A DNA stretch of 64,000 nt from Shigella phage ESh36. The position numbers and the translations under genes were made by a program. The stretch is taken from the sequence record ON528746, one strand, 5' to 3'. Below, one piece after another: positions 11,217 through 56,800 of this stretch. The number at the start of each line of letters is the position of its first letter. The first letter of the stretch is position 1. The notes below the pieces were generated by a model, which had not been told where the DNA came from, ran no database searches, and saw only the letters and a program-made list of their open reading frames with translations.

Positions 11217-11757
11217 ATAAAAAATCCAAACTAGGAGAATCGTCTACAACACTTTTCTTTTCAGCCCCCGGTGTTCTATAGGTTGATTCTTCGTAATGCG
11301 TCATTTTATCGTAGATGTCTTGAATAAAAGTTTCATCTACTAACGCAACCATATCGTCGTCACGACTGTCATAGACATTGTGAACGAAGTAACTATATTT
11401 CTTTGCAACTTCCTTACGTTCTTTTTTAATACGTTGGACGAATGCATTAAAACAAGCTTGAGTTATATATGCATGTGGGTTTTTATATTTCGTTTCATCA
11501 AAATTATGAAGCCCCTTAATAGAAGCTTCTATACCATCTGCAATCATTTCTTGTTTCCAGGATTGGGTGTATCCTGAAAAGTTGAAACGTTTAGATAAGC
11601 CTTCTGCAATAAGCATAATGGCTAATCCGATAGTATCATTCTGACGAACTACTTTATTTGGGTCTTTATTATTTGCTAATTCTGTTTTCCAATCAATAAT
11701 AGCTTGTAAAAGCTCTTTATTGTTTACGTAATTATATTTAGGCTTAGTTTCTGACAT
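11200..11757 (-). CDS. 55: Late-transcription sigma factor gp55
   Basis: 185 aa from the ATG at 11757 ([24 protein letters not shown]...); matches T4 gp55. Confidence 0.9.
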
Positions 11758-11835
11758 TTTCACCTCTTAGCTCAATTCATAGATCTATTATATCATAATA
11801 TTTGAATATCTATCTTAAAGCATAGAGGATATCAG

Positions 11836-12105
11836 TTATCTAAGTAAACAGTATGCTTGGAACACTTTCTCCATCATCTTTTTAAATTCATGAATATCTA
11901 TATAATGACTAGTTAAATCAGCATGATATAAAAAGTCTAAAAACTTTTCATGTGTGCTAACATATTCGCTTTCATTTAATTCAGAAACATGGCTTTCCCA
12001 ATATCCAACACCAGTCTTATTTGGGAAAAATGAAATTTTCATGCATTGGTCAACATAGAAAATACCAAAATTTTCAATAGCAATAGAAATATTAATTAAT
12101 TTCAT
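11836..12105 (-). CDS. Hypothetical protein (55.x series)
   Basis: 89 aa ORF. Confidence 0.4.
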   Translation of the reverse strand: MKLINISIAIENFGIFYVDQCMKISFFPNKTGVGYWESHVSELNESEYVSTHEKFLDFLYHADLTSHYIDIHEFKKMMEKVFQAYCLLR

Positions 12106-12323
12106 ACATTCATCAACTTAGCCGCTTCAAGAGCTGCATCTAGTGAATCAAACTGGTCAACGTATTCAATCAATTCGCCATAATTAGCGTATAACCACCA
12201 TTGGCTAAATTCATACTCAAGGATGAATCCATTTCCTTCAATTTGAGTTAAACCAATGCCATTTGTATTTACTTCATATCCGGCAAGACGTAAATCGTTA
12301 ATAAGAGCTTCGTTCATATTCAT
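12102..12323 (-). CDS. Hypothetical protein (55.x series)
   Basis: 73 aa ORF; 4-nt overlap with neighbour. Confidence 0.45.
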   Translation of the reverse strand: MNMNEALINDLRLAGYEVNTNGIGLTQIEGNGFILEYEFSQWWLYANYGELIEYVDQFDSLDAALEAAKLMNV

Positions 12324-12646
12324 ACCTTAGCAATTTTCAGATCAGCAAATTTTTTCTTGCGTTGATTTTTCATACGACGAATAGTTTTATCGGAAATTTC
12401 ATGCTTTTGATAAGCTTTAGATTCTACGCCAAAAGCTTTAACATCAAATTCTGACAAGATATATTGAACCAACAATTCACGGACAGTATTGCGCCCAATC
12501 TTCTGATCATTCTGTTTCATCGTCTGATGAAGCTCTTTTTCCCATTTATCCAAAATTTGAGGAGTTACAATATCGCCTTTTTCTAGCAAAGAAACTACTT
12601 TATCATATGCGTAAGAATTGATGGCGTTTTTAATTTGAATAGTCAT
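12320..12646 (-). CDS. Hypothetical protein (55.x series)
   Basis: 108 aa ORF; 4-nt overlap. Confidence 0.45.
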   Translation of the reverse strand: MTIQIKNAINSYAYDKVVSLLEKGDIVTPQILDKWEKELHQTMKQNDQKIGRNTVRELLVQYILSEFDVKAFGVESKAYQKHEISDKTIRRMKNQRKKKFADLKIAKV

Positions 12647-12684
12647 ACATTATCCTCAATTGCGTTAAAATTTTATTATCCAAA

Positions 12685-12700
12685 AAGGGCCGAAGCCCTT
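12685..12700 (-). terminator. C(UUCG)G hairpin followed by a U-run (intrinsic terminator candidate)
   Basis: AAGGGC-CGAA-GCCCTT, then TTTTATTATCCAAAA on plus = U-rich tract on the transcript. Confidence 0.55.
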
Positions 12701-12899
12701 AGCTAAACTGTTTGGCACCCTTCCAGCCTTCGTACATCATTGCGACTGATATTAATATTGCTCCTGCGCATTTTGAATATTTGTGATTCCAAAACCAGTT
12801 CAGAAAAACTTCGTCATCAATACCTTGGGCTATCATATTTTCAAAGAACTGACGACGAGCTTCAGCAATTCGTTGTGATAATTTAGATTCAGGATTCAT
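12699..12899 (-). CDS. Hypothetical protein
   Basis: 66 aa ORF. Confidence 0.4.
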   Translation of the reverse strand: MNPESKLSQRIAEARRQFFENMIAQGIDDEVFLNWFWNHKYSKCAGAILISVAMMYEGWKGAKQFS

Positions 12900-13031
12900 T
12901 TAAATTTTCCAGTTACCATTTTCATCAATAAATTTAATCCAATCATTTACTGACCACTTGGTCGTATCGCCTTTTGGAGCAACATTTAAAGTGTATAATC
13001 CTTGTTTAAAAAGCATGCGTTTGATATTCAT
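12900..13031 (-). CDS. Hypothetical small protein; start placed at the internal ATG
   Basis: ORF-track 12900..13115 overlaps its neighbour; ATG at 13031 (MNIKRMLFKQ...) gives 43 aa. Confidence 0.3.
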   Translation of the reverse strand: MNIKRMLFKQGLYTLNVAPKGDTTKWSVNDWIKFIDENGNWKI

Positions 13032-13038
13032 ATTTTCC

Positions 13039-13332
13039 TCAGCTGTAACGATAGCACTCGTTTGATTTACGCTTAGCAACTCGTTGAGAAGTATTGTAAT
13101 CAAAATCATCGTCAATGTAAACTGATTTTTTCAACTTTCTTACTTCACCACGTAATTGGCGATTTAACTCATCTTTAACTTCTGAATCAATGCCTTTCAT
13201 TCTACGCCATTTATCAGAGCGAAAAATGTTTTCGACCATATCTTTATGACTTACACCATCAGGAGCTTTACGCTTTCCAAAATAGTCATAATCACGCACT
13301 TTTAAATCTTTACGACGATACGTTTTACCCAT
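13039..13332 (-). CDS. Hypothetical basic protein
   Basis: 97 aa from the ATG at 13332 with SD (MGKTYRRKDLKVRDYDYFGKRK...). Confidence 0.4.
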   Translation of the reverse strand: MGKTYRRKDLKVRDYDYFGKRKAPDGVSHKDMVENIFRSDKWRRMKGIDSEVKDELNRQLRGEVRKLKKSVYIDDDFDYNTSQRVAKRKSNECYRYS

Positions 13333-24417: not shown

Positions 24418-25404
24418 TTATTTCAGAAGAGTAACCTCAGCAATTTCTTCCCAACCGTTTTTGTCGGTCATAATAAAGTCAGCAAGATAAAGAGCAGTAC
24501 GCAGTGAAACATTGCGTAAACGATTAACATTAACTTTCATCCATGATAATGCTTTATAAGTTTCTTCATCAGAAAGACCGCGCTTTTGCATCATGTCAGT
24601 TGAAAGAATAACATCTTCAACCCTGACCATAATTTCTTCATTAGTGTGAACACCCAAATCTAAATAAACTGAGCGGGACACTAATGCTTGTAAATGTGGA
24701 GCAAGTTTAGTACCACGGTCTAATTCGCGGTCAATGTCAACGTTTGTGATAAAAACAATCGTTCCTTTAAATTCAAACTCACGCTCAATGCCTTTTTCTT
24801 CTAAGTAAGAAGATGCAGTGCTCCAGCAGACTTTACGGGTCTCTCCGGTGTCCAGAGCGGCTTTTAGAAGATTAAGAATGTCCATATCAGAGAAAACATC
24901 CACATCATCAATCAAAAGGACAGAATTCTCTTCACGATTATTCCAGAGCTGTTCATAAAGACCAATACCAGAGATTTTACCGTTAATGCTTTTATATTCA
25001 ATGTATCCCTTATCATTTGCTTTATTCAAAGCTTTATCTAAAGAATACGTTTTACCAATACCCGCCGCACCAGAGATAATTAATGAACGAATGTTTCCGT
25101 TAATAATACCATTCGTCATCATTCCCATAACATTAAATCTTTTATTAATGCGGGTTTTCATATCTTCATATGATTCTTTAACTTCTTCAACTTTTACACC
25201 ATCATATGAAATGTCTGATTTGTAAACCCAAACACCGCGACGCTTACCGTCAATTTCAACAAAAACTTTACCATCTCCTTGTGCATCTACCGGAGCATTA
25301 TCTGGGAACCATTCACCTAAGAGCTCAAAAGTTCCAGAGATTTCTTTACCGAAGTAGATACCCTTATTGATAGTTACAGTTTTCATTTTATTCTCCAATC
25401 TCAC
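24418..25404 (-). CDS. P-loop ATPase (AAA-like; nrdC.10 position)
   Basis: 328 aa; Walker A GAAGIGKTY and Walker B-like LLIDDVD. Confidence 0.55.
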   Translation of the reverse strand: MRLENKMKTVTINKGIYFGKEISGTFELLGEWFPDNAPVDAQGDGKVFVEIDGKRRGVWVYKSDISYDGVKVEEVKESYEDMKTRINKRFNVMGMMTNGIINGNIRSLIISGAAGIGKTYSLDKALNKANDKGYIEYKSINGKISGIGLYEQLWNNREENSVLLIDDVDVFSDMDILNLLKAALDTGETRKVCWSTASSYLEEKGIEREFEFKGTIVFITNVDIDRELDRGTKLAPHLQALVSRSVYLDLGVHTNEEIMVRVEDVILSTDMMQKRGLSDEETYKALSWMKVNVNRLRNVSLRTALYLADFIMTDKNGWEEIAEVTLLK

Positions 25405-25420
25405 ATTTGTTTTGATAGGG

Positions 25421-25454
25421 TAATAGTATCACACTACTACCCTTCTGTAAACAA
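25421..25454 (-). promoter_or_regulatory. T4-type early promoter
   Basis: GTTTAC-18 bp-TACTAT. Confidence 0.6.
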
Positions 25455-25455
25455 T

Positions 25456-25719
25456 TTATTTTAACGTTCGCCAAATTTTTACTGCTTCACGGCGAGATAC
25501 TTCTACAGCTCCAAGTTCTATAGCTTTTTGGCGTCGGCGAGCGTGTAAGTCATAATGTTTAATGCGTTTATCTTGAAACCAAGAACGTTTCATTCCTATT
25601 GCTTCTGCCATTTCATGAAGCTCTTCAATATCTCCATCAGTGAACATATGACAATTTTTAGTTGGATGACCGCGAAGTTTCCATCCATGATTCATTAAAA
25701 CATCTACGTAAACTGTCAT
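25456..25719 (-). CDS. Hypothetical protein (nrdC.11 position)
   Basis: 87 aa ORF. Confidence 0.45.
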   Translation of the reverse strand: MTVYVDVLMNHGWKLRGHPTKNCHMFTDGDIEELHEMAEAIGMKRSWFQDKRIKHYDLHARRRQKAIELGAVEVSRREAVKIWRTLK

Positions 25720-25865
25720 TGATTCTTCTCCAAATAAGTTTCGATAATTTTCTGAGCGAGATAAACCGCGTTATCTTCAGTTGCGTCTTCTAAGAAACTT
25801 TCAAAACACTCTGAAATTTCTTCTGTGTCAATCAACTTTTTTACTTCAATTGGTGTAATTTTCAT
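25716..25865 (-). CDS. Hypothetical small protein; start moved to the ATG downstream of the promoter
   Basis: ORF-track 25716..25982 runs through the promoter; ATG at 25865 with GGAG SD gives 49 aa (MKITPIEVKK...). Confidence 0.35.
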   Translation of the reverse strand: MKITPIEVKKLIDTEEISECFESFLEDATEDNAVYLAQKIIETYLEKNQ

Positions 25866-25897
25866 TTTATTCTCCAAATCCGTATCAGTTGATAGTT

Positions 25898-25931
25898 GTA
25901 TAGTACCATAAAGCTTTATGCTTGTAAACCA
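25898..25931 (-). promoter_or_regulatory. T4-type early promoter
   Basis: GTTTAC-18 bp-TACTAT with AT-rich UP-like tract. Confidence 0.6.
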
Positions 25932-25959
25932 CTTTGTGAAAAATTTTTGAAATAAAAAA

Positions 25960-25975
25960 GGAGCCCGAAGGCTCC
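25960..25975 (-). terminator. Intrinsic terminator after the nucleotidyltransferase-fold gene
   Basis: GGAGCC-CGAA-GGCTCC hairpin followed on the transcript by UUUUUUAUUUC. Confidence 0.65.
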
Positions 25976-25978
25976 CTA

Positions 25979-26989
25979 TCATTTATAATAACTTCGGTGG
26001 TTTTCAAGATAAACCCTCTCAAGGAAGTCATCCCAAAAACCCATGTCTACTTTTTGCTGCATACCGTTCTTAGAAGCTTCAGTAGATGCTGCTTCTACTT
26101 GATCGACCACATCTTCCAAAAACTCTTGAACCGTTTTAAATGGATGCTTACCCAACTTCACGTCGAGAATAAAGGGAGCATCTTGGAGTGGATAAATCAA
26201 GTCGCCAGTTTTGTAAATTTCCAATAGTTGAAGTCCACCACGACAAGCATGGCTCAGAGCTTTCCAGTCAATGCCTTCGTTGGCTTCGGCTTTACGAGCA
26301 CGTTCACCGTATTCAGCATCTAATTTGTTCAGTGACTGCTTAAGCTCAATAAGAGAAAGCGTTGTCTGATATTTACGACCCAACACAGTGTAGAACGTTT
26401 GTGGACCTGTTTTCTCATGATTATGGAATACCCATTCACAGAATTCGTTCTCTGGAAGACGATGCTTAATATCTTCAACTTTAGTACGACGCTGCTTAAT
26501 GGAACCGTCTTCTTGGTAATCAATCCACTGCTCAGGGATTTGATTAACTACTTTCAATACATCACGTAATGCAGCCAAACGAGAACCCTTAACGCCGTAT
26601 TTAGAAGCTTGCTTGCGAACATATCCTAAATAGGATTTCATGTTAGTCGTATAAAAACGAGAACGGTTGTCTTGAATAAACTTCCACACATCAGGCAAAT
26701 CAGATTTAACCACTAGTTCAGGTGGAGTGTGAAGCATATCTAATGCTACAGTTTCACCATCTGCTGCTAATTTAAAGAAATATTTAAGACTGTATAGTTC
26801 ATGGTCAATATCATCTTTAGTGTTTTTAGATGATGTGTTGTTAGTATTTTTACTCATGTGCTCTTTAACATTTCCAATAAGAATATCGCGAGCAGGAGGA
26901 ACAAAGATTTCTTTAAAATCTACATCAGATTCTGGAGTAGAAGTTCCATAAAGATGACTACCAAAATAAGACTTAACTACAGTTTTCAT
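25979..26989 (-). CDS. Polymerase-beta-type nucleotidyltransferase-fold protein (function unknown)
   Basis: 336 aa; N-terminal GS-x9-DxD motif (YFGSHLYGTSTPESDVDF) with a downstream acidic residue (ALDMLH); ~230 aa helical C-terminal region; TAATG-coupled to the upstream membrane gene. Confidence 0.6.
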   Translation of the reverse strand: MKTVVKSYFGSHLYGTSTPESDVDFKEIFVPPARDILIGNVKEHMSKNTNNTSSKNTKDDIDHELYSLKYFFKLAADGETVALDMLHTPPELVVKSDLPDVWKFIQDNRSRFYTTNMKSYLGYVRKQASKYGVKGSRLAALRDVLKVVNQIPEQWIDYQEDGSIKQRRTKVEDIKHRLPENEFCEWVFHNHEKTGPQTFYTVLGRKYQTTLSLIELKQSLNKLDAEYGERARKAEANEGIDWKALSHACRGGLQLLEIYKTGDLIYPLQDAPFILDVKLGKHPFKTVQEFLEDVVDQVEAASTEASKNGMQQKVDMGFWDDFLERVYLENHRSYYK

Positions 26990-27462
26990 TATTCAGCCTT
27001 ATATTCAATAACAGGACATACTTTAGCTTTACGAGCTTTTAAAAATTCAACGATAATCGATTTCTTGGGTTGAATAGGAGGTAAACCTTTATACGCCCTA
27101 TCAATATTTTCTATGTGTAAAGCATAATCCTTTTTCCATTTATAATCTTTATATTTTTCATACAAATGCGCAGGAATAACAAATGAACCGATAATAAGTA
27201 AAACAACCAAAAGCGCAAGTATAAATGCTGATGGAAGAAGAGTCCATAAACTACCGAAAATAAGCCAACGTTGTAGGCTTTCTGCACAAATAATTGTTAG
27301 ACCTGCGAGTATAGTACATCCGAAAAAAGAAACGAAAAATGTAGGGATAACAATAGACCAAAAGTATGCACACAGTGTCTTAGGTCGTTTCCATTCATCG
27401 TTAAACAGTTTGAATAATTTATAGTGCCAAGAGTTTTCATTAATAATCATAATTATAATCAT
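26989..27462 (-). CDS. Two-TM membrane protein
   Basis: 157 aa; two long hydrophobic segments then a K-rich tail; overlaps both neighbours by 1-4 nt. Confidence 0.5.
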   Translation of the reverse strand: MIIIMIINENSWHYKLFKLFNDEWKRPKTLCAYFWSIVIPTFFVSFFGCTILAGLTIICAESLQRWLIFGSLWTLLPSAFILALLVVLLIIGSFVIPAHLYEKYKDYKWKKDYALHIENIDRAYKGLPPIQPKKSIIVEFLKARKAKVCPVIEYKAE

Positions 27463-27980
27463 CCTTTCATTGAAGGTGTAACAGTTGTTAAATACTTAAT
27501 CATAGCCTCAGCTTCTGATTTTGATAATGAAATTTCTTCATTGTTTTGACGAATAGAAATAAAATCCGGATGACGGTCACCACCAGCTTTTAAAACACAC
27601 ATATAAGTATCAGTTTCATCTTCAATATTTGAAATGATTGAAGCAGTTCCACATGAATGCGGTTTTTGATAAATCAATACAGCTTTTCTTCCGCCATTTG
27701 ACTGTTCATAAACTTTTAACACATCAAACAAATCGCTTCTTTTATCAATAGCTAAGATGTTGTTTTCATCTTCAATATTAAATCCTTCGGATACTTCATA
27801 AAGTGTCACCCATAAATCACCAATATCAATAACAGCGTTCACTTTTCCATGACTTTCAAGAGCATTACAAATTTTCTTAATTTCATCATAACTCATTTTA
27901 ATAATATCATCTCCTTGAATAAGGAAGATGTCATTTTTAAATTCAACACGAATTAAACCACTTCCACTTGAAATAAACAT
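27459..27980 (-). CDS. Hypothetical protein, paralogue A
   Basis: 173 aa; shares EGFNIEDENNILAID and C-terminal SKSEAEAMIKYLTTV with the adjacent 184-aa ORF. Confidence 0.5.
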   Translation of the reverse strand: MFISSGSGLIRVEFKNDIFLIQGDDIIKMSYDEIKKICNALESHGKVNAVIDIGDLWVTLYEVSEGFNIEDENNILAIDKRSDLFDVLKVYEQSNGGRKAVLIYQKPHSCGTASIISNIEDETDTYMCVLKAGGDRHPDFISIRQNNEEISLSKSEAEAMIKYLTTVTPSMKG

Positions 27981-27986
27981 ATTTCC

Positions 27987-28541
27987 TCACTTTGAAATCA
28001 TAATTGGAATGACAGAATCGAGATAAGTCTTTAGCGCAATAGCTTCGTCTTTGGTAAATGTGACAATATACGATCGAAAATCATCAATTTGACGAATAGT
28101 TAAGACATCACCATCTTCATAGCATTTTGAAACATTTAAAATAGTTTCATCATTCTGATTACAGGAGTTAGTAATAATAGCATTACATTTTTTAAACCAT
28201 TTTAAATTATGTTTTCTTTTAGTAGAATCATAAAAATATTTAATGTTAGTTATAAAATTATCCCAATTATTAATTGATAAGCACATTGACTCGCTTTTAA
28301 TATTAAATCCTGGGCATGAAGAATAAAAATTAATTTTATGCTCATCATTAATGCTTACAATTTTATCAGTGTAAGCATATTCAATTTGGGTTAAACGAAC
28401 AATTTCACTAAACGTAAAATATAACATATCGTCTTCTTGCGTCAAACGATACATGTTATTTACTTTTTCTATAGCCAATTCACCAAAAAGCGGACTAACT
28501 TCTAATACTAATCGTTTCATATTAATCCTTTTTATTGGCAC
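27987..28541 (-). CDS. Hypothetical protein, paralogue B
   Basis: 184 aa; PGFNIKSESMCLSINN and TKDEAIALKTYLDSV motifs parallel paralogue A. Confidence 0.5.
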   Translation of the reverse strand: MPIKRINMKRLVLEVSPLFGELAIEKVNNMYRLTQEDDMLYFTFSEIVRLTQIEYAYTDKIVSINDEHKINFYSSCPGFNIKSESMCLSINNWDNFITNIKYFYDSTKRKHNLKWFKKCNAIITNSCNQNDETILNVSKCYEDGDVLTIRQIDDFRSYIVTFTKDEAIALKTYLDSVIPIMISK

Positions 28542-28800
28542 GAATTTGTTCTAAAATTTTAGAGTATTCCTTTGTATCAGATTTACGTACAATCGATACA
28601 CTATACGGCATACTATCGGTGTCTTTTATAAAGCGTTCCAAATGACATTCTAATAAAATTTCTGGATTATAAATCGTGTACATCAAATTACCTGTTGCTC
28701 CACGATATTGACAGACTTCTACTGATTGAACACCATTCCATAATTTTGTTAAGACCAAATCACCTACTTCTAATTTAGGAAAGCCCATGTTATTCACCAA
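28522..28800 (-). CDS. Hypothetical protein
   Basis: 92 aa ORF overlapping neighbours. Confidence 0.4.
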   Translation of the reverse strand: MVNNMGFPKLEVGDLVLTKLWNGVQSVEVCQYRGATGNLMYTIYNPEILLECHLERFIKDTDSMPYSVSIVRKSDTKEYSKILEQIRANKKD

Positions 28801-28975
28801 TTAAAGTTTCAATATAAGAATCAAGATTTACTTTAGCTTCTTCCATAAGAGTTTTGTATTTAATCTTGTTAGCATGTCCGGAGAAAGCTGATTCATCAAT
28901 AACTGTTGCTGTATGAACAGCTTTGCTATATGTTTCAATTAATTCTTTTAATTTAAAAGCCTGCTCACTTGTCAT
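28790..28975 (-). CDS. Hypothetical small protein (first gene after the promoter)
   Basis: 61 aa ORF. Confidence 0.4.
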   Translation of the reverse strand: MTSEQAFKLKELIETYSKAVHTATVIDESAFSGHANKIKYKTLMEEAKVNLDSYIETLIGE

Positions 28976-29105
28976 TACATACTCCTTTGAATAATATCAA
29001 TAATGTTGTTCACCAGATTATAAGTAAACATTGGGTAATTATATTGAATCATCACATACACAACAAACAAAACTTTCATTCTCTTCTCCTTGGCAGTTGA
29101 CAAGA

Positions 29106-29139
29106 TTACTATACCATAACCTTGCCAACTTGTAAACCA
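29106..29139 (-). promoter_or_regulatory. T4-type early promoter
   Basis: GTTTAC-18 bp-TATAGT. Confidence 0.6.
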
Positions 29140-29313
29140 TTAAATGACGTTTTCAATAAAATTCTGAAGCTTTGTGTGAGCATCAACCATGATTTTCATT
29201 TCTTCTTTTGCGAAAGCTGTACCTCTTTCACGAGAAGAACATTCATAGTCAGAAACTGCATTAGCATATTCTTCAATTAGCTTCATTAAAAACATCTGCT
29301 TTTCAGTTTTCAT
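29140..29313 (-). CDS. Small ORF (57 aa) missed by the ORF track
   Basis: Manual read: MKTEKQMFLMKLIEEYANAVSDYECSSRERGTAFAKEEMKIMVDAHTKLQNFIENVI; stop abuts the promoter -35. Confidence 0.35.
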   Translation of the reverse strand: MKTEKQMFLMKLIEEYANAVSDYECSSRERGTAFAKEEMKIMVDAHTKLQNFIENVI

Positions 29314-29497
29314 TATTCCACCTAATCATTTCAAGATATTGAACTAACTTAGCTTTAGATTTATCCAAATCCTTTTTAGCTGCTTCTATACCATCGTATG
29401 AATATCCTTCACAATGCTCAACTGCTAATTGATATGAATCTATTTCAATATCACGTGCTAATTTAATGATTTTTTCAAACTGTTCGCGTGTTAGCAT
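29303..29497 (-). CDS. Hypothetical small acidic protein
   Basis: 64 aa ORF. Confidence 0.4.
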   Translation of the reverse strand: MLTREQFEKIIKLARDIEIDSYQLAVEHCEGYSYDGIEAAKKDLDKSKAKLVQYLEMIRWNNEN

Positions 29498-29499
29498 AC

Positions 29500-29739
29500 T
29501 TACACTCTCGTATTATGATCGATAATTTCATCAAGAAACATATCTAACGCTTCTATAGCATTATCCACTTTAGTTTCAAAGTCTTTAATGCCTTTATTCG
29601 AAATACCCGATGAATACCAAGCAAAGTCAATCAGCTCTTCATCTGCTTTACGAATTGAAGCCACTAATTCCTTGATTTTATCTGCTTGCTCTATACTAAT
29701 CATTATTCCACCACATATGACAGAGAGAATATTGCACAC
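29500..29739 (-). CDS. Hypothetical small protein
   Basis: 79 aa ORF. Confidence 0.4.
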
Positions 29740-53867: not shown

Positions 53868-56800
53868 CAGTAAAAGCACCTTCAGTCACTAGTCTCAGAA
53901 TTTCCAAGTTATCCGCAAATCAGGTGCAAGTACGCTGGGATGACGTTGGTGCTAATTTCTACTATTTTGTAGAAATCGCTGAGACAAAAACGAACTCGGG
54001 GGAAAATCTCCCGAGTAATCAATACAGATGGATTAACTTAGGATATACTGCAAATAACAGCTTCTTTTTTGATGATGCTGACCCATTGACATCATACATT
54101 ATCAGAGTAGCTACAGCTGCGCAAGATTTTGAGCAGTCTGATTGGATTTATACCGAAGAGTTTGAAACTTTTGCTACAAATGCTTATACATTTCAAAACA
54201 TGATTGAAATGCAATTAGCCAATAAATTCATTCAGGAAAAATTTACTCTTAATAATTCTGATTATGTTAATTTTAACAATGACACTATAATGGCTGCATT
54301 GATGAATGAATCATTTCAATTCAGCCCATCGTATGTTGATGTTTCATCAATAAGTAATTTTATTATTGGTGAAAATGAGTATCATGAAATACAAGGTTCT
54401 ATTCAGCAAGTATGTAAGGATATTAACCGAGTTTATTTGATGGAATCAGAAGGAATTCTATATCTTTTTGAGCGCTATCAACCTGTAGTTAAAGTATCCA
54501 ATGATAAAGGACAAACCTGGAAAGCCGTAAAGCTCTTCAATGACCGTGTAGGATATCCTTTATCTAAGACAGTATATTACCAATCTGCGAGCACAACATA
54601 CGTTCTAGGATACGACAAGATTTTCTATGGCCGTAAATCGACTGACGTTAGATGGTCAGCAGATGATGTCAGATTCAGTTCGCAGGATATAACATTTGCT
54701 AAACTTGGCGACCAGTTACATTTAGGATTTGATGTAGAAATCTTTGGTACTTATGCTACATTACCTGCAAATGTATATCGTATAGCTGAAGCCATTACTT
54801 GTACGGATGATTATATCTATGTTGTTGCCAGAGATAAAGTTAGATATATAAAAACGAGCAATGCACCTATAGATTCTGATCCATTATCTCCAACATATTC
54901 GGAAAGGCTATTTGAACCTGATACAATGACTATAACTGGAAATCCTAAAGCAGTATGCTATAAAATGGATTCTATTGGTGATAAAGTTTTTGCTCTTATT
55001 ATCGGTGAAGTTGAAACATTAAATGCTAATCCTAGAACGTCAAAAATAATTGATTCTGCTGATAAAGGAATATATGTTTTAAATCATGACACAAAAACGT
55101 GGAAAAGAGTTTTTGGCAACACTGAAGAAGAAAGAAGACGTATTCAACCTGGATATGCGAATATGTCAACTGATGGTAAATTAGTTTCTCTGTCTTCGAG
55201 TAATTTTAAATTTTTAAGTGATAACGTTGTTAATGACCCTGAAACTGCAGCGAAATATCAGTTAATCGGTGCTGTTAAATATGAATTTCCTCGTGAATGG
55301 CTAGCCGATAAGCATTATCATATGATGGCATTTATAGCAGATGAAAAATCTGATTGGGAAACTTTTACACCTCAGCCAATGAAATACTACGCAGAACCGT
55401 TCTTTAACTGGTCTAAAAAATCTAACACACGGTGCTGGATAAACAACTCTAATAGAGCTGTAGTAGTTTATGCTGATTTAAAATACACTAAAGTTATAGA
55501 AAATATTCCGGAAACATCGCCAGATAGATTAGTTCATGAATACTGGGATGATGGTGATTGTACGATAGTAATGCCAAATGTTAAATTCACAGGATTTAAA
55601 AAATATGCGTCTGGGATGCTTTTTTATAAATCTTCTGGTGAAATAATTTCTTACTATGATTTTAACTATCGAGTGAGAGACACGGTTGAAATAATTTGGA
55701 AGCCAACTGGAATATTTTTAAAAGCATTTTTACAAAACCAAGAGCGTGAAACTCCTTGGTCACCAGAAGAAGAGCGTGGATTAGCTGACCCTGATTTAAG
55801 ACCATTGATTGGCACAATGATGCCTGATTCTTATTTACTACAAGATTCGAATTTTGAGGCATTTTGCGAAGCATATATTCAATATCTTTCTGATGGATAT
55901 GGAACTCAGTATAACAATTTACGAAATTTAATTCGTAACAAATATCCACGAGAAGAGCATGCATGGGAATATTTGTGGTCAGAGATATATAAAAGAAACA
56001 TTTATTTAAATGCTGACAAACGTGATGCTGTTGCAAGATTTTTCGAATCACGTAGCTATGATTTTTATTCTACTAAAGGAATTGAAGCATCATACAAATT
56101 TCTTTTTAAAGTTCTTTATAATGAAGAGGTTGAAATTGAAATTGAATCTGGGGCTGGTACTGAATATGATATAATCGTTCAATCTGATTCTTTGACTGAA
56201 GATTTAGTAGGACAAACGATTTATACAGCCACAGGAAGATGTAATGTTACTTATATAGAAAGAAGTTATTCTAATGGTAAATTGCAATGGACCGTAACTA
56301 TTCATAATCTTTTGGGAAGATTAATTGCTGGTCAAGAAGTTAAAGCAGAAAGACTCCCTAGTTTTGAAGGCGAAATTATTCGTGGAGTTAAAGGAAAGGA
56401 TTTGCTTCAAAACAATATAGACTATATTAATAGAAGTAGATCATACTATGTAATGAAAATTAAATCCAATTTACCTTCTTCCCGCTGGAAATCTGACGTT
56501 ATTCGTTTTGTTCATCCAGTAGGATTTGGATTTATAGCAATTACCCTTTTAACGATGTTTATTAATGTTGGTTTAACTCTTAAACATACAGAGACTATAA
56601 TTAATAAATACAAAAACTATAAATGGGATTCTGGATTGCCTACTGAATATGCTGATAGAGTAGCTAAATTAACTCCAACCGGTGAAATTGAGTATGATTC
56701 AGTAACAGGCGAAGCAATTTATGAACCTGGCCCAATGGCTGGTGTAAAATATCCTCTTCCTGATGACTATAATGCTGAAAATAATAATTCAATATTTCAA

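What the first reader, a model, noticed from the sequence alone, without database searches (positions are those of the whole stretch)
25979..28975. Translationally coupled early operon with a nucleotidyltransferase-fold protein and a two-TM membrane protein, where T4 carries mobD
Between nrdC.11 and rI, a known hyperplastic region, six minus-strand ORFs are packed with 1-4 nt overlaps (61, 92, 184, 173, 157 and 336 aa in transcription order), bounded by an early promoter at 29106-29139 and a terminator at 25960-25975. The last gene has the polymerase-beta-type GS-x9-DxD signature (GSHLYGTSTPESDVDF) plus a large helical C-terminal region, the architecture of CD-NTase/MNT/OAS-like enzymes. It is TAATG-coupled to a two-TM protein, and two of the upstream genes are paralogues. 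I do not recognise it as a characterised T-even gene. An NTase coupled to a membrane protein could be a nucleotide-signal synthase with an effector (exclusion or defence carried by the phage) or a counter-defence/host-takeover enzyme.
Basis: partly seen in the sequence, partly recalled or inferred. Interest (0 to 1): 0.8.

Follow-up and report, generated by a model that had tools for sequence, protein, structure and literature searches.

The report
T-even nrdC.11 RlaP-type RNA nucleotidyltransferase operon
The "unknown" enzyme gene is the already catalogued phage T4 gene nrdC.11, a member of the RlaP family of enzymes that add one or two nucleotides to broken RNA ends, so it most likely helps the phage repair tRNA rather than making an alarm signal for the neighbouring membrane protein.

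Summary
The sequence features are real. There is a tightly packed minus-strand early operon with a promoter-like site, a terminator, two paralogous genes, a two-TM protein and a pol-beta-type nucleotidyltransferase (NTase).

The gene map is wrong. The 336-aa NTase is T4 NrdC.11 itself (330/336 identical). The 328-aa ATPase downstream is nrdC.10. A seventh cistron, mobD.2 (34 aa), was missed. T4 carries the mobD homing endonuclease only in place of the 173-aa and 157-aa genes.

NrdC.11 passes the Pfam RlaP (PF10127) threshold and keeps GS, DxD and further acidic residues in 114 homologues. It models confidently as an NTase domain plus a helical region. No cGAS, OAS or CD-NTase appears among the listed fold matches.

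A 2025 preprint shows that RlaP enzymes add 1-2 NMP to RNA 3'-OH ends, and it names T4 NrdC.11 as a family member. In my scan, full-length bacterial homologues sit beside RtcB, Ro60, PNKP, Hen1 and RtcA. None sits beside a homologue of the membrane protein.

The NTase and the membrane gene are separable in phages: they are split by insertions, and the membrane gene is absent from T4.

Verdict: this is a known gene of a known family, with its phage function untested. The signal-synthase/effector idea is not supported.

The parts
29108..29136 (-). Promoter-like site (GTTTACA -35, TG-extended TATAGT -10), a probable T-even early promoter for the operon
   Evidence: 10/12 matches, TG before the -10; sequence read. 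Function as an early promoter is inferred, not shown.
28975..29079 (-). mobD.2 orthologue, 34 aa. It is the first cistron, is preceded by AAGGAG, and its stop overlaps the next start (TAATG).
   Evidence: 91% identical to T4 mobD.2, 100% to phage 107. No Pfam hit.
28790..28975 (-). 61-aa DUF7438 protein. It is one of four DUF7438 paralogues in this stretch and is absent from T4 at this position. The 'helicase loader' label in PHROGs and RefSeq is unverified.
28522..28788 (-). Phage_tudor (PF24144) protein, 88 aa from the ATG (92 aa from the upstream TTG at 28800). Absent from T4.
27987..28520 (-). mobD.1 orthologue, y05I-like two-domain protein. It is 177 aa from the ATG; the longest ORF is 184 aa from the GTG at 28541.
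   Evidence: T4_y05I_N E 3.5e-42, T4_y05I_C E 2.2e-18; 94% identical to T4 mobD.1.
27459..27980 (-). Second y05I-like protein, 173 aa, a paralogue of mobD.1. T4 has mobD in its place.
26989..27462 (-). 157-aa two-TM membrane protein (phrog_944) with basic N-terminus and basic C-terminal tail. ATGA-coupled upstream and TAATG-coupled to nrdC.11. T4 has mobD in its place.
25979..26989 (-). nrdC.11, a 336-aa RlaP-family (PF10127) pol-beta nucleotidyltransferase. It has G10-S11, D22-x-D24, D60/D62 and D84, a beta-rich insert at about 154-208 and a helical C-terminal region.
25958..25977 (-). Intrinsic-terminator-like hairpin (8 bp stem, 5 G-C pairs, UUCG-type loop, T-run), starting one base downstream of the nrdC.11 stop codon
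   Evidence: sequence. The stretch is conserved in T4.

Best explanation
The block is a T-even early accessory operon: mobD.2, DUF7438, tudor, mobD.1 (y05I), a y05I paralogue, a 2-TM protein and nrdC.11. Its last gene is the orthologue of T4 nrdC.11.

NrdC.11 is a long-form member of the RlaP family of pol-beta nucleotidyltransferases. It most likely works as a template-independent RNA 3'-end nucleotidyltransferase. Two metal ions held by D22/D24 and a third carboxylate (D62 or D60) would activate an RNA 3'-OH to attack an NTP, adding one or two nucleotides.

In the infected cell this would let the phage's own end-healing and sealing enzymes (Pnk, Rnl1/Rnl2, known from T4) restore tRNAs from which a host anticodon nuclease has removed a nucleotide. 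RloC-type wobble excision is the example.

The upstream genes, including the membrane protein, are co-transcribed accessory genes that vary between phages. They are not obligate partners of the enzyme.

Shown here: orthology, family membership, conserved acidic residues, NTase fold, the RNA-repair neighbourhood of cellular homologues, and the separability of the NTase and membrane genes. Inferred: RNA as the substrate, and the anti-ribotoxin role.
For: - Orthology: 330/336 identical to T4 NrdC.11, with conserved flanks.
- Family: Pfam RlaP PF10127 at 44 bits against a cutoff of 23; phrog_388 'nucleotidyltransferase' E 1e-135. Every listed homologue but one carries PF10127.
- Catalytic residues in 114 homologues down to 26% identity: G10, S11, D22, D24 and D84 invariant; D60 in 112/114; D62 always D or E.
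- Cellular context: 55 genome loci encode relatives (most at 25-45% identity, most covering nearly the whole protein). Of the 43 I could analyse, RtcB lies within 4 genes in 5, Ro60/TROVE in 3, PNKP kinase-phosphatase in 2, Hen1 in 1 and RtcA in 1. A canonical full-length RlaP lies directly downstream in 8.
- Phage context: in Vibrio phage 11895-B1 the homologue sits two genes downstream of a CCA-adding tRNA nucleotidyltransferase, with one 'hydrolase' gene between.
- Literature: PMC12776372 shows that Pseudomonas RlaPs add 1-2 NMP to RNA 3'-OH, prefer Mn2+, prefer nicked-tRNA mimics, do not act on DNA or protein, and restore aminoacylation of a tRNA missing one nucleotide. It places T4 NrdC.11 in the family (sequence-similarity-network cluster 5). 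PMC7824862 predicts the same role for phage RlaPs. PMC2610378 and PMC3458546 describe RloC wobble excision as a lesion expected to defeat T4 repair.
Against: - No assay exists for NrdC.11 or any member of its subfamily. The assayed enzymes are canonical RlaPs.
- NrdC.11 matches the Pfam model only over its N-terminal half (profile positions 24-142 of 249). Profile-profile alignment with canonical RlaPs covers residues 1-136 only, so the substrate-binding C-terminal region differs.
- In eight bacterial loci the NrdC.11-type gene is followed by a canonical RlaP. This suggests the two forms are not redundant.
- In T-even phages nrdC.11 is not adjacent to pseT, rnlA or rnlB.
- The T4 region nrdC.11-mobD.3 can be deleted without loss of viability on a laboratory host (PMC9825161). 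That fits an accessory role but gives no phenotype.
- About four fifths of the bacterial loci show no RNA-repair neighbour.
Confidence: 0.6

Rival explanations
1. One reading: NrdC.11 synthesises a nucleotide second messenger (CD-NTase/OAS-like) that is sensed by the translationally coupled 2-TM protein. The pair would be a phage-borne exclusion or abortive system.
For: The NTase and the 2-TM gene are TAATG-coupled in this phage. They are adjacent or near each other in several Straboviridae genera: Mosigvirus, Gaprivervirus, Jiaodavirus and Acinetobacter phage AbTZA1.
Against: - T4, Aeh1, PspYZU05 and Vibrio 11895-B1 keep the NTase without the membrane gene. Insertions separate the two genes in VR26 (mobD), Jiaodavirus (3 genes) and AbTZA1 (1 gene). 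The jumbo phage fHe-Yen9-04 has the membrane gene with no NTase in the 3 kb read on either side.
- 1572 phage records hold the NTase against 934 with the membrane protein.
- No membrane-protein homologue in 43 bacterial loci, and only 2 of 51 adjacent same-strand neighbours have two or more TM segments.
- The cytoplasmic tail of about 57 aa is small for a nucleotide sensor.
Confidence: 0.04
2. A HalB-like reading: NrdC.11 polymerises short free oligonucleotides, like the oligodeoxyadenylate made by the Hailong NTase HalB. These could act as a ligand or decoy, for example keeping a host HalA-type channel closed or feeding host or phage nucleases.
Against: - The similarity is at superfamily level (15% identity, rmsd 4.2 A). 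The family profile finds no HalB or HalA sequence in the PDB even at E 10.
- Pfam places the protein in RlaP.
- Neighbours of cellular homologues are RNA-repair genes, not channels.
- The crystal structure of the assayed RlaP is not in the PDB copy searched, so HalB ranks first partly by default.
Confidence: 0.05
3. NrdC.11 acts on RNA ends but not for anticodon-loop repair. It might top up damaged tRNA 3'-CCA ends or tail host or phage transcripts to alter their stability. It might also work only together with another factor, as the tandem pairing with canonical RlaP in bacteria hints.
For: In Vibrio phage 11895-B1 the homologue lies close to a CCA-adding enzyme. The C-terminal region is distinct from canonical RlaP. 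Tandem NrdC.11-type plus canonical RlaP pairs occur in 8 bacterial loci. Canonical RlaPs label many E. coli RNAs in vitro (PMC12776372).
Against: Nothing here separates this from the repair model; both predict RNA 3'-OH extension. The RtcB, PNKP, Hen1 and Ro60 neighbours point to break repair rather than mRNA tailing.
Confidence: 0.2
4. NrdC.11 nucleotidylylates a protein or small molecule, in the manner of MNT/MntA antitoxins, GlnE, DrrA or aminoglycoside NTases. For example, it could AMPylate a host defence toxin.
Confidence: 0.08

Closest known systems
Phage T4 NrdC.11 (NP_049709, T4 55435-56445)
   Same: 330/336 residues identical. Same position upstream of the same terminator and downstream flank. 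Same length.
   Different: Only the upstream neighbours differ. T4 has the mobD HNH homing endonuclease where this phage has the 2-TM gene and a second y05I-like gene. T4 also lacks the tudor and DUF7438 genes at this site.
RlaP family (Pfam PF10127); assayed members PfRlaP and PaRlaP (PMC12776372)
   Same: N-terminal pol-beta NTase domain with GS, DxD and a third carboxylate. HMM score above the Pfam threshold. NTase-plus-helical two-part build. Cellular homologues lie next to RtcB, PNKP, Hen1, RtcA and Ro60.
   Different: NrdC.11 is a long form (about 320-345 aa against about 255-290). It has a beta-rich insert (about residues 154-208) and a C-terminal region that neither the Pfam model nor hhalign aligns to canonical RlaP. 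It occurs in tandem with canonical RlaP in bacteria, so it is probably a distinct subfamily (cluster 5 of the preprint's network). It has never been assayed.
Hailong HalB nucleotidyltransferase (PDB 9dbh)
   Different: No detectable sequence similarity. HalB is 217 aa, makes DNA oligomers and works with the HalA channel. The 157-aa protein here shows no similarity to any PDB sequence, HalA included if deposited.
CD-NTases / cGAS / OAS
   Same: Same superfamily-level catalytic motif (GS ... DxD).
   Different: Absent from the listed structural matches. No CBASS-type HMM hit. No conserved effector partner.

Membership tests
T4 nrdC.11 orthologue group | High full-length identity to T4 NrdC.11 and conserved position between nrdC.10 and the mobD/mobD.1 region | tested here: met
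   98% identity over 336 aa. Flanks align to T4 at 95-97%. T4 annotation read.
RlaP (PF10127) | Match to the family HMM above Pfam's gathering score | tested here: met
   44 bits against a cutoff of 23, E 2.8e-11. Only residues 7-134 match profile positions 24-142 of 249. Bacterial NrdC.11-type homologues behave the same way.
RlaP (PF10127) | Conserved catalytic carboxylates of the pol-beta NTase fold (GS, DxD, third Asp/Glu) | tested here: met
   G10, S11, D22, D24 and D84 are invariant. D60 is present in 112/114 and D62 is D or E in 114/114 homologues. D62 aligns with an invariant Asp of canonical RlaPs.
RlaP (PF10127) | N-terminal NTase domain plus C-terminal helical domain homologous to that of canonical RlaP (PfRlaP crystal structure) | tested here: inconclusive
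   The AF2 model (pLDDT 88) has an NTase domain, a beta insert and long C-terminal helices. hhalign with canonical RlaPs aligns only residues 1-136. The PfRlaP structure is not in the PDB copy, and AFDB libraries were unavailable.
RlaP (PF10127) | Gene neighbourhood with RNA ligases or RNA-repair genes | tested here: met
   For cellular homologues: RtcB in 5 of 43 loci, Ro60 in 3, PNKP in 2, Hen1 in 1, RtcA in 1. In the phage window itself there is no adjacent ligase. T4-type phages encode Pnk, Rnl1 and Rnl2 elsewhere (established knowledge, not tested here).
RlaP (PF10127) | Adds 1-2 NMP to RNA 3'-OH ends, Mn2+-preferring | not testable with these tools
   Shown only for the Pseudomonas enzymes (PMC12776372).
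CD-NTase / cGAS / OAS signalling synthases | Structural or HMM similarity to cGAS/DncV-type NTases | tested here: not met
CD-NTase / cGAS / OAS signalling synthases | Conserved pairing with an effector gene | tested here: not met
   The membrane gene is absent from, or separated from, the NTase in many phages and is absent from all bacterial loci.
Hailong (HalB NTase + HalA channel) | Homology of the NTase to HalB | tested here: inconclusive
Hailong (HalB NTase + HalA channel) | Partner homologous to the HalA ion channel | tested here: not met
   The 157-aa protein has no PDB sequence match below E 1. Only a weak PADLOC hit to PDC-M39A was found (E 0.004, 14.8 bits).
MNT/MntA antitoxin NTases | Match to the MntA model above cutoff and a HEPN toxin partner | tested here: not met
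   NCBIfam MntA at 13 bits against a cutoff of 60. No HEPN neighbour.

The most novel reading that the evidence does not exclude
NrdC.11-type long-form RlaPs might not be plain RNA-end repair enzymes. They could be HalB-like makers of short oligonucleotides whose product acts on a membrane protein. The target could be the co-transcribed 2-TM protein, or a host Hailong-type channel that the phage keeps shut by replenishing its inhibitory ligand. Support is thin: HalB is the nearest solved fold, and the membrane gene stays syntenic with nrdC.11 across several Straboviridae genera.

A less radical but more likely novelty: NrdC.11 is the missing third activity of the T4 tRNA-repair pathway. It would let Pnk and Rnl1 reverse nucleotide-excising anticodon nucleases such as RloC, and it would be functionally distinct from canonical RlaP, with which it is paired in bacteria.
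Probability: 0.05. Interest if true: 0.8.

Novelty: already known. Interest (0 to 1): 0.25.

Why it matters
T4 tRNA repair (Pnk plus Rnl1 reversing PrrC cleavage) is the classic phage counter-defence. RloC-type nucleases remove a nucleotide as well as cutting, and this was proposed to make that repair futile.

An RNA 3'-end nucleotidyltransferase found in about 1,570 phage records, T4 included, is the obvious candidate for the missing step, and no one has assayed the T4 enzyme. That keeps some experimental interest alive.

As a scan finding, however, it is a re-discovery of an annotated gene of a described family. The proposed signalling-plus-effector system is not there.

Tried and rejected
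- Sequence searches of the PDB found nothing useful. I tried the protein, its 114-sequence profile, a canonical-RlaP profile and the membrane protein. The PfRlaP crystal structure is evidently not in that copy.
- The AFDB libraries were unavailable, so I could not compare the model with canonical RlaP models.
- BFVD returned other phage and giant-virus NTases and baculovirus HE65 proteins. This added little.
- The Hailong paper (PMC12360457) is not held. I used a review instead.
- Two contig look-ups for distant homologues gave only T4-like phage contexts with no informative neighbours.
- Pfam scans of immediate neighbours in distant phages (Aeh1, AbTZA1, PspYZU05, Vibrio 11895-B1) gave no hits.
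- PADLOC and NCBIfam gave nothing above threshold for any of the six proteins.
- Its distribution already answered the coupling question.
Full report

Mostly yes.

One search finds the best sigma-70-like site of the region on the minus strand at 29136-29108 (TTTACA, 17 nt, TATAGT, preceded by TG; 10/12 matches). It also finds a strong hairpin with a T-run at 25977-25958, which starts one base downstream of the stop codon of the 336-aa gene.

The 336-aa protein begins MKTVVKSYFGSHLYGTSTPESDVDF. The 157-aa protein has two hydrophobic segments (about 34-60 and 69-100), and its N-terminus and 57-residue C-terminal tail are both basic. The 173-aa and 184-aa proteins are paralogues (26% identity, E 2e-10). 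Both carry T4_y05I_N plus T4_y05I_C.

The junctions read are:
- TAATG between mobD.2 and the 61-aa gene, and between the 157-aa and 336-aa genes.
- ATGA between the 173-aa and 157-aa genes.
- A 6-nt spacer before the 173-aa gene.

The 92-aa and 184-aa lengths rest on TTG and GTG starts. The ATG starts annotated in the closest phage give 88 and 177 aa, each one base after the preceding stop.

**2. The gene map is wrong in one important respect.**

The annotated T4 region and a BLASTP comparison show that the 336-aa protein is T4 NrdC.11, with 330 of 336 residues identical.

A blastn map against T4 and tblastn of each operon protein give these correspondences:

| Window | T4 |
|---|---|
| 25859-26993 | nrdC.11 with its terminator |
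| 26994-27961 (2-TM gene plus the 173-aa y05I paralogue) | replaced by the mobD HNH homing endonuclease |
| 27962-28518 | mobD.1 |
| 28519-28963 (tudor and DUF7438 genes) | absent |
| 28964 onward | mobD.2 and the rest, up to rI |

So there is a seventh cistron, mobD.2 (34 aa, 29079-28975). It lies directly behind the promoter and has a good Shine-Dalgarno sequence. 'Where T4 carries mobD' is true only for two of the genes.

The block is not peculiar to this phage. 360 phage records hold at least 80% of it by megablast, and 599 hold part of it.

**3. What the enzyme is.**

*Family assignment.* Pfam places residues 7-134 in RlaP (PF10127) at 44 bits against a cutoff of 23. PHROGs gives phrog_388 'nucleotidyltransferase' at E 1e-135. 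PADLOC finds nothing. NCBIfam gives only a sub-threshold MntA hit.

*Family size.* The family is very large. There are 3393 representatives at 50% identity with E at most 1e-3, of which 824 are below 1e-30. Most of the listed best 150 align over nearly the full length.

*Conserved residues.* I aligned the protein with 113 homologues spanning 88% down to 26% identity. Invariant residues are G10, S11, D22, D24, N56, D84, H87, K130, Y131, K134, R230, D241, K243, H247 and R250. D60 is present in 112/114, and D62 is always Asp or Glu. The catalytic carboxylates are therefore intact.

*Predicted structure.* AlphaFold2 on this alignment gave a confident model (mean pLDDT 88, pTM 0.70). It has an N-terminal alpha/beta NTase domain, helices at 118-150, a beta-rich insert at about 154-208 and long helices at 213-335.

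*Fold comparison.*
- Foldseek against the PDB gave only weak matches.
- No cGAS, OAS or CD-NTase appears in either list.

**4. What is known about the family.**

A December 2025 preprint (PMC12776372) characterises two Pseudomonas RlaPs encoded between rtcB and rtcA.
- They add one or two NMPs (or dNMPs) to RNA 3'-OH ends.
- They prefer Mn2+.
- They prefer the 5' half of a nicked-tRNA mimic.
- They do not act on DNA or protein.
- They raise the aminoacylation of a repaired tRNA that had lost one anticodon-loop nucleotide.

The crystal structure is an NTase domain plus a helical domain, with the active site in the cleft between them. The paper states that T4 NrdC.11 belongs to the family, in cluster 5 of its similarity network. 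It proposes RlaP as the antidote to 'smart' ribotoxins such as RloC, which excise a nucleotide after cutting.

The same prediction for phage RlaPs is made in PMC7824862. RloC's wobble excision is described in PMC2610378 and PMC3458546.

Papers that mention nrdC.11 by name contain no functional work on the T4 protein. A genome-reduction study found the T4 segment nrdC.11-mobD.3 removable (PMC9825161).

**5. Independent context test.**

NrdC.11 matches only half of the Pfam model, so I asked whether its own subfamily is tied to RNA repair. A scan of one genome per prokaryotic species found 55 loci encoding relatives, most at 25-45% identity and most covering nearly the whole protein. I could analyse 43 of them by ORF calling, clustering of neighbours and Pfam scans.

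| Neighbour (RtcB and Ro60/TROVE: within four genes; others: within two same-strand genes) | Loci |
|---|---|
| RtcB | 5 |
| Ro60/TROVE | 3 |
| T4-Pnk-like PNKP kinase-phosphatase | 2 |
| Hen1 | 1 |
| RtcA | 1 |

These genes are normally single-copy or absent. Finding RtcB beside 12% of loci is therefore far above the roughly 0.3% expected by chance; this estimate is my own and was not simulated.

Eight loci have a canonical, full-length RlaP (235 bits, profile positions 2-247 of 249) immediately downstream of the NrdC.11-type gene. hhalign relates the two forms only over residues 1-136 (probability 93.5%). NrdC.11 is thus a distinct long-form subfamily that travels with RNA-repair genes but is probably not redundant with canonical RlaP.

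In the non-T4-like Vibrio phage 11895-B1 the homologue lies two genes downstream of a CCA-adding tRNA nucleotidyltransferase.

**6. Is the membrane protein a partner?**

tblastn finds NrdC.11 in 1572 phage records and the 157-aa protein in 934. The arrangements differ from phage to phage:

| Phage group | Arrangement |
|---|---|
| This phage, phage 107, Mosigvirus | adjacent and coupled |
| Gaprivervirus VR26 | mobD between the two genes |
| Klebsiella Jiaodavirus | three genes between |
| Acinetobacter phage AbTZA1 | one gene between |
| T4, Aeh1, PspYZU05, Vibrio 11895-B1 | no membrane gene |
| Jumbo phage fHe-Yen9-04 | membrane gene, no NTase within 3 kb on either side |

No bacterial locus has a homologue of the membrane protein or of any other operon gene. 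Only 2 of 51 adjacent same-strand neighbours have two or more predicted TM segments.

The pair shares an operon and some synteny, as much of the T-even early region does. It does not behave as an obligate two-gene system.

**7. Most likely mechanism.**

An early promoter drives a seven-gene message that ends at the hairpin after nrdC.11. NrdC.11 would use D22/D24 and a third carboxylate (D62, which aligns with an invariant Asp of canonical RlaPs, or D60) to bind two metal ions. It would transfer an NMP to an RNA 3'-OH, supplying the nucleotide that Pnk and Rnl1/Rnl2 cannot restore.

Orthology, family membership, residues, fold and context are shown here. The substrate and the anti-RloC role are inferred. 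I put this at about 0.6.

The rivals are:
- Another RNA-end role, such as CCA repair or tailing (0.2).
- Protein or small-molecule nucleotidylylation (0.08).
- A HalB-like oligonucleotide product (0.05).

**8. Verdict.**

The finding re-discovers an annotated gene of a described family. What remains open is the untested function of phage NrdC.11 and why bacteria pair this long form with a canonical RlaP. Interest 0.25; novelty: already known.

Noticed in passing
window 25399-25858: About 460 bp between nrdC.10 and nrdC.11 that T4 lacks. It holds an 87-aa DUF4031 protein (25456-25719, Pfam E 1e-21) and a small upstream ORF (88 aa as the longest ORF; 49 aa as annotated in phage 107). A promoter-like site lies at 25928-25900.
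   Followed up: partly
window 28790-28975 and 29140-29703: Four paralogous DUF7438 genes (61, 57, 64 and 67 aa; Pfam E 1e-15 to 1e-17) form a small array spanning the promoter. The three upstream copies lie where T4 has mobD.2a, mobD.3 and mobD.4. PHROGs and RefSeq label the 61-aa member 'helicase loader', which looks unfounded for a protein of about 60 aa.
   Followed up: partly
window 28975-29079: A 34-aa mobD.2 orthologue with a hydrophobic N-terminal half (MKVLFVVYVMIQ...). It is the first cistron after the promoter, is TAATG-coupled to the next gene and is conserved in T4, phage 107, Mosigvirus and Jiaodavirus.
   Followed up: partly
public records matched: Gene-name-driven misannotation is widespread. 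NrdC.11 homologues are often called 'thioredoxin' (from nrdC). mobD.x genes and the 2-TM protein are called 'molybdopterin-guanine dinucleotide biosynthesis protein MobD'. One NrdC.11 homologue is called 'HNH homing endonuclease'. rI.-1 (DUF5856) is called 'starvation-inducible transcriptional regulator'.
   Followed up: no
L028 1861-7781; L030 3709-7743; L045 1770-4895 (also L016, L027, L033, L048, L052): In bacteria the NrdC.11-type long RlaP is often followed directly by a canonical full-length RlaP. In L028, L030 and L045 this tandem pair lies downstream of RtcB (and of Ro60 in L028 and L030). This hints that the two forms have different, cooperating roles.
   Followed up: partly
L009 (phage VR26) 3007-5239, compared with L001 (T4) 11436-13209: mobD sits immediately upstream of nrdC.11 in both VR26 and T4. 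In VR26 the 2-TM gene is retained upstream of mobD. In T4 that gene and the y05I paralogue are gone. This suggests a homing site at the 5' end of nrdC.11 and a secondary deletion or co-conversion in the T4 lineage.
   Followed up: partly
L004 (Vibrio phage 11895-B1) 275-3921: A CCA-adding tRNA nucleotidyltransferase gene, split by an HNH-endonuclease-containing insertion, is followed by a 154-aa 'hydrolase' (no Pfam hit) and then the RlaP homologue. This may be a small RNA-end-repair cluster.
   Followed up: partly
window 24418-25404: nrdC.10 (328 aa) gives only weak, sub-threshold hits to AAA and STAND NTPase models (nSTAND3 E 8e-5, AAA_16, AAA_22). It is a P-loop NTPase of unknown role next to the repair-type NTase.
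   Followed up: no
PV648364.1 (Escherichia phage T2), hit H103: In this T2 record the 157-aa membrane gene matches in two pieces (81.6% identity), which suggests a frameshift or indel. PHROGs also has a separate family (phrog_22816) for just the C-terminal 73 residues.
   Followed up: no
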